Shown here piece after piece: positions 39,004 through 43,186 of a stretch of DNA of 54,540 nucleotides. Position numbers and translations under genes: made by a program. Where the stretch lies: positions 1 through 54,540 of the forward strand of contig CAWDSQ010000019.1 in NCBI GenBank assembly GCA_963804955.1, in the 5' to 3' direction. Each line of letters begins with the position of its first letter. Position 1 is the stretch's first letter. Origin of the DNA: an uncultured delta proteobacterium. Its GTDB lineage: Bacteria > Desulfobacterota > WTBG01 > CAIYCZ01 > CAIRTM01. Below the pieces are notes generated by a model. The model was not told where the DNA came from and searched no databases. It saw nothing but the letters and a program-made list of their open reading frames with translations.

Positions 39004-40065
39004 ATGAGCAAAGAAACAGCACGGGACAAAGACGCAGCACGGGACAAGGAAGCCAACAAGGAAAAGGCCATAGAAATGGCCGTGAGCCAGATTGAAAAAC
39101 AGTTCGGCAAGGGGGCTATCATGCGCCTCGGGGTTGAAGGAGCGCTGGTTCATGACATAGCGGTCATTCCCACCGGTTCGCTCAGCCTTGACATAGCCCT
39201 GGGCCTTGGCGGCATTCCGCGGGGCAGGGTAATTGAGATATTCGGGCCCGAATCTTCCGGCAAAACCACGCTGGCGCTGCAGATCATTGCCGAGGCCCAG
39301 AAAACGGGCGGCTCCGCAGGGTTTATCGATGCCGAGCATGCCCTGGATGTAACCTATGCCCGCAAGCTGGGCGTGAAGACCGACGAGCTGCTTATTTCCC
39401 AGCCCGACAGCGGCGAGCAGGCCCTTGAGATCTGCGAAGTGCTGGTGCGCAGCGGCGCTTTGGACGTGCTGGTTGTCGACTCGGTTGCAGCTCTTGTGCC
39501 CAAGGCGGAAATTGAAGGCGATATGGGCGATTCGCACATGGGCCTGCAGGCCCGCCTCATGTCGCAGGCACTGCGCAAGCTTACCTCAGCCATCAGCCGC
39601 TCCAAGACATCGGTCATTTTCATCAACCAGATTCGCATGAAAATCGGGGTCATGTTCGGCAATCCCGAGACCACCACCGGCGGCAATGCGCTGAAATTTT
39701 ACGCAAGCGTGCGCATGGACATACGCAAGATCGGCATGATCAAGGATGGCGAGAACGTGATCGGCAACCGCACCAGGGTGAAAATCGTGAAGAACAAGAT
39801 CGCCCCGCCGTTTCGGGAGGTTGAGTTCGACCTGATGTTCGGCGAGGGGATTTCCCGCGAAGGGGATATTCTTGATCTCGGCGCTGCCCAGAATATTATC
39901 GATAAAAGCGGCGCATGGTTTTCCTACAAAAGCGACCGCCTCGGCCAGGGCCGGGAGAATGTAAAAAACTATCTGAAAGAGCATCCGGAAATCATGGCGG
40001 AAATCGAGCTGGCTATTCTTGAGAAGGCGGGGCTGGCAAAGCCTGTCCTTGAGGCGGCAGATTGA
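39004..40065 (+). CDS. recA: Recombinase A
   Basis: [47 protein letters not shown]. Confidence 0.99.
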
Positions 40066-40350: not shown

Positions 40351-40827
40351 ATGGAAAATAATCTTACACTTCAAAAAGCTCTTGATACAGCCTACCGGCT
40401 TCTGGCAGGCCGTCCGCATACGCGGGCTGAAATCAAGCGCAAGCTTTCCCGCAAAGGCGCCGGCGCTGACATCATCGTTCAGGTGCTTGATGAGCTGGCG
40501 CGCAAGGGCTATATTGATGAAGACGACATGGCGCTGCGGTGGGCGCAGGCTCTGGTGCGCGACAGGTTATGGGGGCCCCTGAAAATTTCCGTCTATCTCA
40601 TGCAAAAAGGCCTCGGCCGCGATCTGATCGATCAGGTGCAGCGCCGGGTCTGGCAGGAATTTGACGAATCCGAGATTGCCGGACTTGCGCTGCACAAGCG
40701 TTTTGGCGGCACAAACGATGCGGCCCCTGCTGCCAAAAAGGCTGCATTTCTTCGCTCGCGGGGTTTTTCATCCGGGGTGATTTACAGCCTTGCAAAAGAG
40801 CCTGCCCGCGATGATTGTTATGATTGA
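40351..40827 (+). CDS. recX: Regulatory protein RecX
   Basis: AYRLLAGRPHTRAEIKRKL, GYIDE, WGPLKI, FLRSRGFS; downstream of recA. Confidence 0.9.
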   Translation: MENNLTLQKALDTAYRLLAGRPHTRAEIKRKLSRKGAGADIIVQVLDELARKGYIDEDDMALRWAQALVRDRLWGPLKISVYLMQKGLGRDLIDQVQRRVWQEFDESEIAGLALHKRFGGTNDAAPAAKKAAFLRSRGFSSGVIYSLAKEPARDDCYD

Positions 40828-41009
40828 GGCTGCATTGCAAGCAGGCCTGCATGTGTGCGCCGCAGGTTTTTTGCGGCGCCAAACGGCTGAAAGACAATGG
40901 CTTTAAAATATGAATTTTACCTCTTTTTAGAGCCCTGCCCTGCCGGGAAAAGCCGAAAATACTGCTGCCGGGGGTTGAAAAAAACACGCGCGCGGCCCTA
41001 AATATAAAA

Positions 41010-41038
41010 TTGACAATTATAGTACAATAAAATATATA
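41010..41038 (+). promoter_or_regulatory. sigma70 promoter of the RRM-rpsU operon
   Basis: TTGACA (41010-41015), 17 nt, TATATA (41033-41038) with an AT-rich UP-like region. Confidence 0.65.
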
Positions 41039-41043
41039 TATAA

Positions 41044-41346
41044 GTTGTGGGACGAAGTGTGCTCGACTTCACAAGATCGTTCGGTCTTGTAATGGCGAAA
41101 TCAGCAATCACTCCTCCGCCTGAACACGTGAGCATTTTTGCTTGTGGGTGACCGAAGATCGAATTGCTTTTGAACAGTATGTTGCCTGCGATATAATTTT
41201 TTTTTGACGTTGCTCCGCGACCCGCGGACTCCAGTCCAGTATATAGTTTGCAGCAATCGTCCCACGTGGGAACTTTCTTGAAAGTCGTGTGCAGGATATA
41301 ATACAGCCTTGCCGGTTTTGCTGACTGACGGAAATCCCCATACAAC
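41044..41346 (+). ncRNA. Candidate ~300-nt structured leader or cis-regulatory RNA
   Basis: Begins at the predicted TSS; ends pair (GTTGTGGGA / TCCCCATACAAC); multiple internal hairpins; no convincing ORF. Confidence 0.5.
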
Positions 41347-41378
41347 CAATACCTATTTCATTTAAAGGAGAGTAGAAG

Positions 41379-41744
41379 GTGGAGAAAAAACTTTACGCGG
41401 GCAATCTGTCGTATAACACAACAGAGGATGATCTCAGGCAGCTGTTTTCACAGTTTGGGGATGTTGAATCTGTTAAACTGATAACCGACAAGGAAACAGG
41501 ACGTCCGAAAGGATTCGGTTTTGTGGCCATGGGCTCTGAAGAAGCGGCTCAAAAGGCTGTGGCTGAACTCAATGGCACGTCATTCATGGAAAGAAATATA
41601 ACCGTTGCTGAAGCTCAGCCTGAAAAGCCCAGAGAAAATCGCGGGTTTGGCGGCAACCGGGGCGGCTTCGGTGGAGACCGGGGAGACCGGGGCGGTTTTG
41701 ATAGAGGCCGGGGAGGACGCGGGCCTGGGAGAGGGGGGAGATAA
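41379..41744 (+). CDS. RRM RNA-binding protein with RGG-rich tail
   Basis: RNP2 LYAGNL, RNP1 KGFGFV, C-terminal GGNRGGFGGDRGDRGG; AAGGAG SD. Confidence 0.93.
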   Translation: MEKKLYAGNLSYNTTEDDLRQLFSQFGDVESVKLITDKETGRPKGFGFVAMGSEEAAQKAVAELNGTSFMERNITVAEAQPEKPRENRGFGGNRGGFGGDRGDRGGFDRGRGGRGPGRGGR

Positions 41745-41748
41745 GTTA

Positions 41749-41928
41749 TTGAAAGTAGACGTCGTTGGGAATGATGTTGAGAAAGCTCTGAAAATCCTGA
41801 AACGAAATCTGAGCAGAGACGGTCTTTTTAGAGAAATGCGCAACAGAAAATTTTATGAGAAGCCGTCTGTGAAAAAGAAAAGGAAACAGGCTGCTGCACG
41901 CAAGAACAAAAGAAAAATGGGTTTCTAG
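41749..41928 (+). CDS. rpsU: 30S ribosomal protein bS21
   Basis: TTG start; KVDVVGNDVEKALKILKR..FYEKPSVKKKRK. Confidence 0.9.
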   Translation: MKVDVVGNDVEKALKILKRNLSRDGLFREMRNRKFYEKPSVKKKRKQAAARKNKRKMGF

Positions 41929-42005
41929 TAACGAACCCCATAGGTCTTACGAGAATGCGACAGCAGATAAGCTTTAAAACCAATTAGAGTTTTTTCGCAC
42001 TACAT

Positions 42006-42043
42006 AAAAAGGGCTAAAGAAGCAATTCTTTAGCCCTTTTTTT
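42006..42043 (+). terminator. Bidirectional intrinsic terminator
   Basis: AAAAAGGGCTAAAGAA-loop-TTCTTTAGCCCTTTTTTT. Confidence 0.85.
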
Positions 42044-42097
42044 CTTGGCCGTGCTTTTGGGAAGATGAGCTGTTTCATTGAAAGCCCGCCTATCCGC

Positions 42098-42149
42098 ACC
42101 CTGAAAATAAAATCGCCGGTAACTCGTTAGAATTACCGGCGATTCAAAA
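42098..42149 (-). repeat. Second copy of the tRNA-Leu terminator (direct repeat of 43046-43097)
   Basis: ACCCTGAAAATAAAATCGCCGGTAACTCGTTAGAATTACCGGCGATT. Confidence 0.85.
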
Positions 42150-42195
42150 CTAATGCACGGCAGAACGCAACCCATACACAAAATTTTTTGTAGCT

Positions 42196-42483
42196 TTATG
42201 CAAATTCAAGCCGCAACTTTTTCCCGAGAACGGATGCTGCCTTTTTCAAGGTAAAAAGCGTTACCGATTCATTCTCAGGATCAAGCAACCGATTCAATGC
42301 TGCCCGGCTCGTGTGCATCTTTGTTGCCATTTCAGACTTGGTTAAATGCTTTTGAAGCATCAAATCCTCAAGCTGCAGGGCAAGAACCCTTTTGATGGCA
42401 GCCTCGGTGCATTCCTCATACATACCCTCATCTTTTAGAAAATCATCAAAACGATCTCCTAAGTTTTTTTTGCTTATAGCCAT
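42196..42483 (-). CDS. XRE/HTH antitoxin (HigA-like)
   Basis: FDDFLKDEG..AIKRVLA, HTH TKSEMATKMHTSRAALNRLLDP, VTLFTL. Confidence 0.88.
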   Translation of the reverse strand: MAISKKNLGDRFDDFLKDEGMYEECTEAAIKRVLALQLEDLMLQKHLTKSEMATKMHTSRAALNRLLDPENESVTLFTLKKAASVLGKKLRLEFA

Positions 42484-42509
42484 TACCTGCCTTTGCCTCC
42501 TATCTGTTG

Positions 42510-42845
42510 CTACATGCGTTCCCGCGCAATATCAATATCTCGCTGCGGGGTTTTTTCCGTCTTCTTAATAAATCCGTGCAAAAGAACCATATACCCTTCA
42601 TGGATTGTGAAGAACACGCGGGCAATTCTTTTGTCTGGTAAATGTGATCTCACCTCATGCAGCCCCTTCCCCAGGGGCCTGACCGTAGGCATGCCAAGGG
42701 GCCAGCGGTATTGAACAGTTTTAATATCCTCACCGATTATTTTCCGTACGGCTTTAGGCAAAGCCTTGAGCCATTCCTTCACCGGCTGATTGCCCATGGT
42801 GTTTTTATAGAACACGACTTCAAAAATCGGTTTGTTGTCTGTCAT
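42510..42845 (-). CDS. RelE/ParE-superfamily toxin (HigB/Gp49-like)
   Basis: FY..GNQPVKEWL, WPLGMP, GLHEVR, VLLHGFIKKTEKTP; toxin-first order. Confidence 0.88.
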   Translation of the reverse strand: MTDNKPIFEVVFYKNTMGNQPVKEWLKALPKAVRKIIGEDIKTVQYRWPLGMPTVRPLGKGLHEVRSHLPDKRIARVFFTIHEGYMVLLHGFIKKTEKTPQRDIDIARERM

Positions 42846-43045
42846 AGTATATGTGTACCTATTTTGATACATGATGTCAAGCATTGAATCTACAGGGGAG
42901 CCCCTGGGGCCAGATGGGTGTCAGGCTAACTCAGATAATTCAAACTCTGCTGTAATAGAAGGGGCATATGGCAATATTCCCTTACAAAATACAAAACAAG
43001 CTTGGAAGGAAGGAGTTTAAAGAACACCCGGCGGGAACGCTGGGT

Positions 43046-43099: not shown

Positions 43100-43186
43100 T
43101 GGTGCCGAAGAAGGGACTCGAACCCCCACGGTGTTGCCACCACAAGGTCCTGAACCTTGCGTGTCTACCAATTCCACCACTTCGGC
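43100..43186 (-). tRNA. tRNA-Leu (CAG)
   Basis: GCCGAAGTGGTGGAATTGGTAGACACG-CAAGG-TTCAGGA-CCTTG, long variable arm, GGGGGTTCGAGTCCC, encoded CCA. Confidence 0.97.

What the first reader, a model, noticed from the sequence alone, without database searches (positions are those of the whole stretch)
41044..41346. Candidate novel ~300-nt structured RNA leading an RRM-protein/bS21 operon
Seen: a consensus-like promoter puts the TSS near 41044, about 335 nt before the RRM start. The ends pair (GTTGTGGGA 41044 / TCCCCATACAAC 41335-41346), closing just before the SD. Inside: GAAGT/ACTTC (41054-70), ACAAGATC/GGTCTTGT (41071-90), CAC..GAGCA/TGCTTGTG (41125-46), TATGTTG/CGATATA followed by T9 (41178-41205, terminator-like), GACGTTGCT/AGCAATCGTC (41206-61) enclosing TCCGCG/CGCGGA, and ACTTTC/GAAAGT. 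TCAGCAA (41101) can pair with either ATTGCT (41163) or TTGCTGA (41318), i.e. alternative folds. It lacks tmRNA, RNase P and SRP signatures. Known: bacterial RRM proteins are often cold-induced through long 5' UTRs, and r-protein operons are autoregulated by leaders. Inference: an undescribed thermosensor, attenuator or autoregulatory RNA, or a standalone ncRNA bound by the RRM protein.
Basis: partly seen in the sequence, partly recalled or inferred. Interest (0 to 1): 0.7.

Follow-up and report, generated by a model that had tools for sequence, protein, structure and literature searches.

The report
Long leader before RRM–bS21 operon

Summary
The region is the 5' leader of an RRM-protein/rpsU (bS21) operon. 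A TTGACA-17-TATATA promoter (41010-41038) is nearly invariant in all 7 distinct homologous sequences. Metatranscriptome contigs join the leader to the RRM coding region (41061-41671), and contigs from two studies end at 41061/41062. So the TSS near 41044 is supported and the rival TSS near 41310 is not.

No Rfam family matches. The leader occurs only in one genus, once per genome, always as recX-leader-RRM-rpsU.

The claim of a ~300-nt structured RNA is not supported:
- The fold energy is ordinary (z -0.5).
- Overall conservation (74-76%) equals synonymous-site identity (0.70-0.76).
- Compensatory changes do not exceed controls.
- Several proposed helices, the terminator-like hairpin and both alternative pairings fail in relatives.

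Constraint sits in the 3' third: a CCGCG hairpin with one GC/GU/AU covariation, an invariant palindromic block, an invariant block upstream of the SD, and a weak U-rich hairpin over the SD and start codon.

Best reading: a lineage-specific cis-regulatory 5' UTR. It resembles in kind the leaders of cold-regulated rbp-rpsU and csp genes. Its mechanism is unproven. Interest is modest.

The parts
41010..41038 (+). Sigma-70-type promoter: TTGACA (41010-15), 17-nt spacer, TATATA (41033-38), inside an AT-rich block
   Evidence: Read directly from the sequence. 44 of 58 columns over 40986-41043 are invariant in 7 distinct sequences. Not listed by the scan, which demands T at -10 position 6.
41044..41378 (+). 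5' untranslated leader of the RRM-rpsU mRNA (about 335 nt)
   Evidence: RNA contigs cover 41061-41671 (X1), 41062-41298 (X7, another study) and 41196-41670 (X4). Homologous only in genus g1.
41047..41053 (+). 5' block GTGGGAC (TGGGAC invariant). Complementary to 41259-41265, or alternatively to 41335-41338.
   Evidence: Alignments. RNAalifold pairs it with 41258-41265. That pairing is in the MFE of 4 of 5 lineages folded.
41071..41090 (+). Hairpin ACAAGATC/GGTCTTGT. Three pairs change on both sides in 2 sequences; five of its eight pairs are broken in one to three of the clade-B sequences.
   Evidence: helix 4: 3 pairs with double change, 3 broken-only, 85.7% of cells paired.
41128..41145 (+). 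Hairpin with invariant core GAGCA/TGCTT and a variable loop
   Evidence: helix 5: 4 pairs never vary, 2 vary on one side, 2 broken-only.
41178..41205 (+). A U-rich tract is kept in all sequences; the hairpin is not.
   Evidence: -3.3 kcal/mol in G000; a different fold in clade B. The X1 and X7 contigs bridge it.
41215..41227 (+). Hairpin CCGCG-ACC-CGCGG. Its loop-closing pair is G-C in 4 sequences, G-U in 1 and A-U in 2.
   Evidence: helix 8: 100% of cells paired, 1 pair with double change.
41258..41272 (+). Invariant block CGTCCCACGTGGGAA holding the perfect palindrome TCCCACGTGGGA
   Evidence: A 15-column invariant run. CCCACGTGGG occurs once in the 4.26-Mb assembly, against 2 for the control pattern.
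41279..41286 (+). Invariant block TGAAAGTC
41291..41312 (+). Hairpin GCAGG/CTTGC. It keeps pairing through one-sided changes and is lengthened in clade B.
41335..41351 (+). Invariant block TCCCCATACAACCAATA, A/C-rich, upstream of the SD. CCCAT can pair with GTGGG at 41266-70.
   Evidence: A 17-column invariant run. RNAalifold pairs.
41353..41382 (+). Translation initiation region. CTATTTC (41353-59) is predicted to pair with GAGAGTAG (41368-75) across the SD AAGGAGAG (41365-72). CCA at 41346-48 is predicted to pair with TGG of the GTG start region.
   Evidence: -5.2 kcal/mol at 37 C and -11.9 at 10 C, with SD unpaired probabilities of about 0.2-0.4. 42 of 48 columns over 41331-41378 are invariant. 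Within this hairpin the variable sites are in the loop or change C-G to U-G, plus a 1-nt deletion in its U-run in G002; one further variable site (41352) lies just 5' of it.
41379..41744 (+). RRM-domain RNA-binding protein with a Gly/Arg-rich tail
   Evidence: Pfam RRM_1, E 6.3e-26.
41749..41928 (+). rpsU (ribosomal protein bS21), TTG start 4 nt after the RRM stop. The only bS21 match in this assembly.
   Evidence: Pfam Ribosomal_S21, E 7.9e-19. One match in G000.
42004..42047 (+). Operon terminator hairpin with flanking A/T runs
   Evidence: Sequence. The stem is visible in the chance miRNA alignments.

Best explanation
The interval is the long 5' untranslated leader of a two-gene mRNA that encodes an RRM-type, glycine/arginine-rich RNA-binding protein and the cell's only detected bS21.

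**Shown**
- It is transcribed from a conserved strong promoter and is contiguous with the coding region in environmental RNA.
- It is a single-copy, genus-restricted sequence.
- Selection is uneven. The 5' half drifts at about the synonymous rate. The 5' GUGGGAC, a CCGCG hairpin, the block CGUCCCACGUGGGAA, UGAAAGUC, UCCCCAUACAACCAAUA and the ribosome-binding region are held fixed.

**Inferred**
- The fixed 3' third acts in cis after transcription to set translation and/or stability of the mRNA.
- The most likely arrangement has 5' GUGGGAC paired with GUCCCAC (41259-65) and GUGGG (41266-70) paired with CCCAU (41337-41). This closes two domains and places the A/C-rich tract and a weak, U-rich hairpin over the SD and GUG start.
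- The input is most likely temperature and/or feedback by the RRM protein (or bS21), by analogy with cold-regulated rbp-rpsU and csp-rpsU operons.
- It is a cis-regulatory leader, not a free-standing ncRNA.
For: **Transcription.** RNA contigs bridge the leader and the CDS (X1 41061-41671; X4 41196-41670). X1 and X7 bridge the T-run. Contigs of two studies end at 41061/41062 without loose ends, which is a weak hint of a nearby 5' end.

**Promoter conservation.** 44 of 58 columns are invariant, against 48 of 223 in the spacer.

**Uneven constraint.** Invariant columns are 86 of 179 (41044-41207), 57 of 83 (41208-41290) and 42 of 48 (41331-41378). Four-fold sites are invariant at 33 of 61 (RRM), 12 of 20 (rpsU) and 11 of 29 (recX). 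Invariant runs of 15, 17 and 20 columns occur.

**Structure hints.**
- The CCGCG hairpin shows GC/GU/AU covariation with no broken cell.
- GUGGGAC/GUCCCAC plus GUGGG/CCCAU is the RNAalifold consensus and the MFE in 4 of 5 lineages.
- The SD hairpin is predicted in every lineage folded.

**Synteny.** recX-leader-RRM-rpsU is found in all 8 loci.

**Context.**
- In another genus the RRM-rpsU pair sits beside a gene whose product I read by eye as a cold-shock-type protein.
- Passages in PMC4424878 report that the Anabaena rbpA-rpsU operon is up-regulated at low temperature, and that rpsU sits in a cspA cold-shock operon in Sinorhizobium.
- Passages in PMC9333190 report conserved cold-response boxes in the 5' UTRs of cyanobacterial rbp genes.
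Against: - No input signal or effect on expression was tested.
- All the long-range pairings lie in invariant columns, so covariation can neither support nor refute them.
- An 8-bp perfect complement is expected about once by chance in 335 nt (my estimate: 335^2/2 x 4^-8, roughly 0.9).
- Overall compensatory change is not above controls: 32 of 500 shuffles reach the observed number of pairs, and 6.5% of column shuffles reach the observed count.
- Fold stability is ordinary, with z from -0.1 to -2.1.
- The sequences amount to only about four lineages of one genus, with synonymous identity 0.66-0.77. Part of the 'conservation' is therefore shallow divergence.
- A hairpin over the SD that strengthens in the cold would by itself lower translation in the cold. 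That runs opposite to a simple cold-induction model.
- Invariance of the ribosome-binding region may reflect only translation-initiation needs.
Confidence: 0.5

Rival explanations
1. The leader is a long 5' UTR with little function of its own. It is a lineage-specific spacer between a strong promoter and the ribosome-binding site. The apparent conservation comes from the shallow divergence of the genus, plus ordinary constraints on the promoter, the first transcribed bases and the translation initiation region.
For: - Leader identity of 74-76% equals four-fold-site identity of 0.70-0.76.
- The 5' half has 0.48 invariant columns, against 0.51 pooled for four-fold sites (56 of 110).
- There are 5- and 8-nt indels.
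- Fold energy is ordinary and there is no excess covariation.
- The RRM-rpsU operon of another genus has a short, unrelated leader.
Against: - Invariant runs of 15 and 17 columns lie 100 and 30 nt upstream of the SD. At about 0.5 invariance per neutral site, a 15-17 column run has a chance of roughly 1e-5 per position (my arithmetic).
- The leader's 5' half is more conserved than the untranscribed spacer (86 of 179 against 48 of 223).
- The fixed blocks are mutually complementary.
Confidence: 0.3
2. The fixed blocks work at the DNA level. The perfect palindrome TCCCACGTGGGA (41260-71) would be an operator for a dimeric regulator, with a GTGGGA half-site at +3 to +9 of the transcript. Binding would give a roadblock or a looped repression complex on this one operon.
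For: - A perfect 12-bp inverted repeat is invariant in 7 of 7 sequences.
- The same hexamer sits right after the TSS.
- Covariation cannot separate the DNA reading from the RNA reading, because these columns never vary.
Against: - CCCACGTGGG occurs nowhere else in the 87%-complete genome, so there is no regulon.
- No regulator gene is linked. The nearby HTH gene belongs to a Gp49/HTH pair, and no homologue of either protein was found in the relatives' loci searched, which hold about 800-1100 nt downstream of rpsU.
- Complementarity extends beyond the hexamer (GUGGGACG/CGUCCCAC), which a half-site model does not require.
- An operator 215 nt inside a transcribed leader is unusual.
Confidence: 0.1
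3. The 5' part (about 41044-41205) is an attenuator or a separate small RNA that ends at the hairpin plus T9. Read-through into the RRM gene would be the regulated step.
For: - A U-rich tract is kept at this place in all sequences.
- One RNA contig (X4) begins at 41196.
Against: - The hairpin is worth only -3.3 kcal/mol.
- In clade B the U-run is interrupted, is followed by an 8-nt insertion, and lies inside another predicted hairpin.
- Contigs of X1 and X7 bridge the site.
- The 5' part is the least conserved part of the leader.
- The terminator scan lists nothing here.
Confidence: 0.06
4. The leader encodes a conserved small peptide, either a leader peptide or a small protein on one of the two strands.
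For: Short ORFs exist in G000, such as a 19-codon ATG ORF from 41092 (read) and three minus-strand ORFs of 77-115 aa.
Against: - The ATG at 41092 is lost where clade B has a 5-nt insertion.
- Indels of 1, 5 and 8 nt break every long frame.
- I saw no three-base periodicity of substitutions, by eye only and not tested formally.
Confidence: 0.02

Closest known systems
Cold-regulated rbpA-rpsU operon of Anabaena variabilis, and the 5' UTR 'cold boxes' of cyanobacterial type-I rbp genes
   Same: - The same gene pair in the same order: a single-RRM, glycine-rich protein followed by bS21.
- A long leader with conserved sequence blocks.
- Sources: passages in PMC4424878 and PMC9333190. That the cyanobacterial 5' UTR itself mediates the cold response is my recollection of a Sato and Nakamura paper that I could not open.
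   Different: - A different phylum.
- No sequence relation could be tested, because the cyanobacterial boxes were not available to me.
- Cold induction here is untested.
- The leader is confined to one genus.
cspA mRNA 5' UTR of E. coli (cold-shock thermosensor; recalled knowledge) and the cspA-rpsU cold-shock operon of Sinorhizobium meliloti (passage in PMC4424878)
   Same: - A long leader on an mRNA for a small nucleic-acid-binding protein.
- rpsU linked to a cold-shock-type gene.
- Alternative long-range pairings are possible.
   Different: - No Rfam family, the cspA thermoregulator included, matches at E<=10.
- The protein is RRM-type, not a cold-shock domain.
- No evidence here of temperature-dependent folds.
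FourU/ROSE-type RNA thermometers
   Same: A weak hairpin made mostly of A-U and G-U pairs in which a U-run pairs with the SD.
   Different: - Those elements switch translation on with heat and sit on heat-shock or virulence genes.
- No Rfam match here.
- The hairpin is a prediction in invariant columns.
Autoregulatory leaders of ribosomal-protein operons, and bS21 autoregulation through an extended SD in Flavobacteriia (PMC9976891, abstract and passages)
   Same: A leader in front of an operon that contains a ribosomal protein. bS21 is a protein known to be feedback-controlled at translation.
   Different: - rpsU is the second gene here, with its own SD inside the RRM gene's end.
- The Flavobacterium mechanism depends on ASD occlusion specific to Bacteroidota.
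- No rRNA mimic was identified here.

Membership tests
Any described RNA family (Rfam 15, 4227 models, including cold-shock, thermometer and r-protein leader families) | A covariance-model match at or near the family's gathering score | tested here: not met
   At gathering scores the only hit in the window is a tRNA at 43103-43186. At E<=10 over 40700-42100, 15 weak matches were listed, and none overlaps 40700-41405.
Conserved structured RNA (generic standard) | Compensatory base-pair changes above phylogeny-aware or shuffled controls | tested here: inconclusive
   - 6 of 56 reader pairs show a double change, a number reached by 32 of 500 shuffles, and 14 pairs are broken-only.
- The RNAalifold covariation term is -1.7 of -54.2 kcal/mol.
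- 16 covarying pairs fall in compatible helices, against 9.1 +/- 3.8 in column shuffles; 6.5% of shuffles reach 16.
- Only about 4 lineages are available, so power is low.
Conserved structured RNA (generic standard) | A fold more stable than shuffled sequence | tested here: not met
   z is -0.50 for 41044-41346. For five lineages z is -0.12, -1.5, -1.82, -0.96 and -2.08.
Intrinsic terminator / transcription attenuator | A stable G+C-rich hairpin directly followed by a U-tract, conserved among relatives | tested here: not met
   The hairpin is worth -3.3 kcal/mol with one G-C pair, and clade B folds differently. It is not listed by the terminator scan. RNA contigs bridge it.
Sigma-70-type promoter | -35 and -10 hexamers at 16-18 nt spacing, conserved, with transcripts starting downstream | tested here: met
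   TTGACA/17/TATATA, with 44 of 58 columns invariant. RNA contigs lie from 41061 onward. The exact TSS is not mapped.
Cold-regulated rbp-rpsU operon (cyanobacterial type) | A single-RRM glycine-rich protein gene followed by rpsU in one transcription unit | tested here: met
   Pfam RRM_1 and Ribosomal_S21. There is a 4-nt gap between the genes and a single downstream terminator. One transcript across both genes is not shown: contigs break in the RGG-coding repeat.
Cold-regulated rbp-rpsU operon (cyanobacterial type) | Induction at low temperature through the 5' UTR | not testable with these tools
   The organism is uncultured and no temperature series of RNA data was available.
Cold-regulated rbp-rpsU operon (cyanobacterial type) | Presence of the conserved 5' UTR boxes of cyanobacterial rbp genes | not tested
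   The primary papers (Maruyama 1999; Sato 1997) are not held. I did not use recalled sequence.

The most novel reading that the evidence does not exclude
The leader is a new kind of four-block RNA switch. Two copies of GUGGGA (41047 and 41266) compete for two C-rich partners (GUCCCAC at 41259 and UCCCCAU at 41335). The mRNA would toggle between a two-domain form (1:2 plus 3:4) and an end-closed form (1:4) that frees the invariant palindrome, for protein binding or RNA dimerisation. The toggle would be driven by temperature or by the RRM protein or bS21, and would set the output of the cell's only bS21 gene, and with it ribosome composition.
Probability: 0.12. Interest if true: 0.6.

Novelty: new member of a known kind. 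Interest (0 to 1): 0.3.

Why it matters
If the fixed blocks do regulate, this would be a worked example outside cyanobacteria of how an RRM-type RNA-binding protein and bS21 are co-controlled through a leader. bS21 sits at the anti-Shine-Dalgarno site. That question links stress or cold acclimation to ribosome composition. As it stands, the finding is a sound annotation: promoter, 5' UTR and operon, in an uncultured Thermodesulfobacteriota genus. It is also a caution that at shallow divergence a long, 'conserved', helix-rich leader can look like a structured RNA without being shown to be one.

Tried and rejected
- **Rfam.** Searches at gathering and E-value thresholds found nothing in the leader.
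- **Copies outside the genus.** A DNA search of 61 relatives gave 5 hits. One of them (G007) is only a 36-nt look-alike promoter in front of an unrelated HTH gene. Covariance model R1 of 41208-41351, run over the 21 genomes of the order, found only the 4 known copies at E<=1e-33. All other hits had E>=0.085.
- **G003, same genus.** No leader, no recX match, and only a 37%-identical bS21 match were found, in a 79%-complete assembly. Absence is therefore not shown.
- **Second copies of the fixed blocks in G000.** The palindrome is unique. The one near-match to the A/C-rich block lies inside a coding region. A CCCCATACA match in L057 lies in an unrelated region downstream of a second RRM-rpsU copy.
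- **Protein-guided genome scan.** It returned only the same three relatives with the leader.
- **Alternative promoters.** TTGAAC/16/TATAAT (41170-97) and TATAAT at 41297 are not conserved in clade B.
- **Energies of the two alternative block pairings.** They differ by 0.6-7.2 kcal/mol, and the order does not change between 10 and 37 C. This gives no evidence for a switch.
- **Parts of the stretch without RNA cover.** In X1 and X7, nothing was laid upstream of 41061, over recX, or beyond 41952. I do not use this as evidence.
- **Small contigs of X4 and X11.** Those over recX and over 40900-40988 carry loose ends and come from relatives.
- **Papers not held.** Sato 1997, Maruyama 1999 and Sato & Nakamura 1998.
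- **Earlier findings of this scan.** None near this place.

Full report
**What is there**

The window carries these genes:
- recA (39004-40065) and recX (40351-40827).
- A 551-nt gap.
- A 121-aa protein with one RRM domain (Pfam RRM_1, E 6.3e-26) and an Arg/Gly-rich tail (41379-41744, GTG start).
- Four bases later, bS21 (41749-41928, TTG start; Ribosomal_S21, E 7.9e-19).
- A strong hairpin terminator near 42004-42047.

bS21 here is the only match to this protein in the 4.26-Mb, 87%-complete assembly.

Titles of related records call these organisms uncultured Deltaproteobacteria or Thermodesulfobacteriota.

**The promoter and the transcript**

TTGACA (41010-15), a 17-nt spacer and TATATA (41033-38) are in the sequence. 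The automatic scan missed them because it insists on T at the last -10 position.

Across 7 distinct homologous sequences, 44 of 58 columns of the promoter block are invariant. In the spacer between recX and the promoter, 48 of 223 are invariant.

I laid Logan contigs of four metatranscriptome runs from three studies on 40600-42150:
- In X1, a 610-nt contig lies on 41061-41671 with 8 differences and 1 gap.
- In X7, from another study, a 252-nt contig lies on 41062-41298 with 2 differences.
- In X4, a 474-nt contig lies on 41196-41670.

So RNA-library contigs join the leader to the RRM coding region, and two of them bridge the T9 run. Two contigs from two studies end within one base of each other (41061/41062) without loose ends. 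The tool itself rates this as a weak hint of a nearby end.

These are contigs, not reads. Strand, exact ends and level are not shown, and DNA carry-over in the libraries cannot be excluded.

Taken with the conserved promoter, a TSS near 41044 is the best reading. TATAAT at 41297 is also not conserved in the second clade.

**Distribution**

- A DNA search of 61 relatives found the leader in G000 and in 3 of the 4 other genomes of the same genus, at 98%, 76% and 75% identity. A fifth hit, in another genus, is only a 36-nt look-alike promoter in front of an unrelated gene.
- A metagenome scan with a pattern taken from the RRM coding sequence, and so unbiased with respect to the leader, gave 4 loci. 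All carry recX-leader-RRM-rpsU.
- One of those loci (L070) is identical to G004 in the leader. I dropped it, which leaves 7 distinct sequences in about four lineages.
- A covariance model of 41208-41351 found only the four known genomic copies among the 21 genomes of the order. They scored E<=1e-33; everything else scored E>=0.085.
- The fourth genus member (G003, 79% complete) also lacks a recX match and has only a 37%-identical bS21 match, so the region may simply be unassembled.

Other genera of the order also link RRM and rpsU. G013 has the order RRM-rpsU. Three others have rpsU-RRM.

The G013 operon has a short, unrelated, AT-rich upstream region. It lies back to back with a gene whose product I read by eye as a cold-shock-domain protein. 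I did not run that gene against Pfam.

**Is it more conserved than neutral?**

Only in parts.

| Measure | Value |
|---|---|
| Four-fold-site identity, G000 vs the second clade | 0.70-0.76 |
| Leader DNA identity, same comparisons | 74-76% |
| Four-fold sites invariant across all sequences: RRM | 33 of 61 |
| Four-fold sites invariant: rpsU | 12 of 20 |
| Four-fold sites invariant: recX | 11 of 29 |
| Leader columns invariant, 41044-41207 | 86 of 179 (0.48) |
| Leader columns invariant, 41208-41290 | 57 of 83 (0.69) |
| Leader columns invariant, 41291-41330 | 20 of 40 |
| Leader columns invariant, 41331-41378 | 42 of 48 (0.88) |

The 5' half also carries a 5-nt and an 8-nt indel.

The fixed runs are GCGGACT (41224-30), CGTCCCACGTGGGAA (41258-72), TGAAAGTC (41279-86), TCCCCATACAACCAATA (41335-51) and TTAAAGGAGAGTAGAAGGTG (41362-81). 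TGGGAC at 41048-53 is also fixed.

At about 0.5 invariance per neutral site, runs of 15-17 columns are far beyond chance. This is my arithmetic.

The 5' half is roughly at the synonymous rate, but it is more conserved than the untranscribed spacer.

**Is it a structured RNA?**

This is not shown.

- Five lineages give z of -0.12, -1.5, -1.82, -0.96 and -2.08.
- RNAalifold gives -54.2 kcal/mol, of which only -1.7 is covariation.
8 vary on one side only. 14 depart only by broken cells.
- A helix-finding test against 200 column shuffles gave 16 doubly changed pairs, against 9.1 +/- 3.8, and 6.5% of shuffles reached 16. The higher count of compatible helices (110 against 60 +/- 15) is what repeated GU-rich words would give.

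Helix by helix:
- GAAGT/ACTTC fails. Its G-C pair is U.C in 5 of 7 sequences.
- ACAAGATC/GGTCTTGT has three double changes in two sequences, but five of its eight pairs are broken in one to three of the clade-B sequences.
- GAGCA/TGCTT has an invariant core and a variable loop.
- The end stem GTTGT.../...ACAAC takes A.C mismatches at 41044 and 41047 with no compensation.
- GACGTTGCT/AGCAATCGTC has two double changes and two broken-only pairs.
- CCGCG/CGCGG is the only clean case: G-C in 4 sequences, G-U in 1, A-U in 2, and no broken cell.
- ACTTTC/GAAAGT has an A.A mismatch in two sequences, and position 41273 is C, U or G in different sources.

The alternative TCAGCAA pairings are not conserved on either side.

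The terminator-like hairpin is worth -3.3 kcal/mol. In the second clade the U-run sits inside another hairpin.

**What the fixed blocks suggest**

GUGGGACG (41047-54) is complementary to CGUCCCAC (41258-65). GUGGG (41266-70) is complementary to CCCAU (41337-41).

This two-domain arrangement is the RNAalifold consensus and the MFE in 4 of 5 lineages.

Because every one of these columns is invariant, neither arrangement can be tested by covariation. An 8-bp complement in 335 nt is expected about once by chance.

Next to the start, CUAUUUC (41353-59) is predicted to pair with GAGAGUAG (41368-75) across the SD. CCA (41346-48) is predicted to pair with the UGG of the start region. The energies are -5.2 kcal/mol at 37 C and -11.9 at 10 C. 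Within this hairpin the variable sites lie in the loop or turn C-G into U-G, and G002 has lost one base of its U-run; one more variable site (41352) lies just 5' of it.

The same blocks read as DNA give a perfect 12-bp palindrome, TCCCACGTGGGA, plus a half-site at +3. Two points count against an operator reading:
- The 10-bp core occurs only once in the genome.
- No regulator is linked. The nearby HTH gene belongs to a Gp49/HTH pair, and no homologue of either protein was found in the relatives' loci searched, which hold about 800-1100 nt downstream of rpsU.

**Comparison with what is known**

- Passages of PMC4424878 state that the Anabaena variabilis rbpA-rpsU operon is up-regulated at low temperature, with more S21 protein, and that rpsU sits in a cspA cold-shock operon in Sinorhizobium meliloti.
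- Passages of PMC6337551 repeat that rpsU is cold-induced.
- PMC9976891 (abstract and passages) shows translational autoregulation of bS21 in Flavobacterium.
- PMC13640635 (passages) notes that Rbp1-type RRM genes often precede another small ribosome-platform protein gene in cyanobacteria.

The primary Sato and Maruyama papers were not held, so I could not compare sequences.

The three full-text searches I ran listed 15, 5 and 12 papers. None of the listed titles or abstract openings describes a leader RNA for an RRM-rpsU operon outside cyanobacteria. These searches were not exhaustive.

**Verdict**

It is a real, expressed, lineage-specific 5' UTR with a strongly constrained 3' third. Most likely it is a cis-acting regulatory leader of a cold-shock-like RRM/bS21 operon (about 0.5). 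The main rival is a largely unconstrained long UTR (about 0.3).

It is a new, unrelated example of a known kind. It has not been demonstrated to be a novel structured RNA.

Noticed in passing
window 42196-42884 (- strand): A Gp49-like (DUF891) gene and an Xre-type HTH gene form a HigB/HigA-like toxin-antitoxin-style pair just downstream of the operon. No homologue was found in the roughly 800-1100 nt downstream of rpsU in the relatives' loci searched, so it looks like a strain-specific insertion.
   Followed up: partly
L046, L048, L052, L058 (genomes G019, G020, G016, G013): RRM-protein and rpsU genes are adjacent in several genera of the order, in either order. G013 has RRM-rpsU and three others have rpsU-RRM. 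The linkage recurs while the leaders are unrelated.
   Followed up: partly
L058:715-954 (- strand): In G013 the RRM-rpsU operon lies back to back with a small gene whose product reads like a cold-shock-domain protein. I judged this by eye and ran no Pfam search.
   Followed up: no
L057 / L040 (G004 contig C273): G004 holds a second RRM-rpsU copy. The RRM part is about 90% (tblastn) to 94% identical and bS21 95%. It is cut by the contig start, so no leader is visible, and it is followed by transposase-like sequence. It could be a strain variant or contamination; the genome is rated about 5% contaminated.
   Followed up: partly
L005:1490-1625 (G007): Another genus has a near-identical AT-rich TTGACA promoter and a similar AAGGAGAG ribosome-binding site in front of an unrelated HTH-like gene with a leader of only about 80 nt. 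The family seems to share a strong promoter and RBS consensus.
   Followed up: no
L068, spacer between recX and the promoter (alignment): A roughly 64-nt insertion specific to this metagenome sequence lies in the untranscribed spacer. The spacer is indel-rich compared with the leader.
   Followed up: no
window 40846-40879: A G+C-rich hairpin with a T6 run lies just after recX. It is probably the recA-recX terminator, which would make the RRM operon an independent transcription unit. The T-run is conserved. It is not listed by the scan.
   Followed up: no
window 41061-41062: RNA contigs of two studies end within one base of each other, 17 nt downstream of the predicted TSS. This could be an assembly edge effect or a processing site.
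   Followed up: no
G001 vs G000 (L002): The leader is 98% identical at the DNA level, and the RRM and bS21 proteins are 100% identical. The adjacent RecX protein is only 89% identical, with recX four-fold identity 0.79 against 0.92-1.00 in RRM and rpsU. This suggests recent recombination, or much stronger constraint on the operon than on its neighbour.
   Followed up: partly
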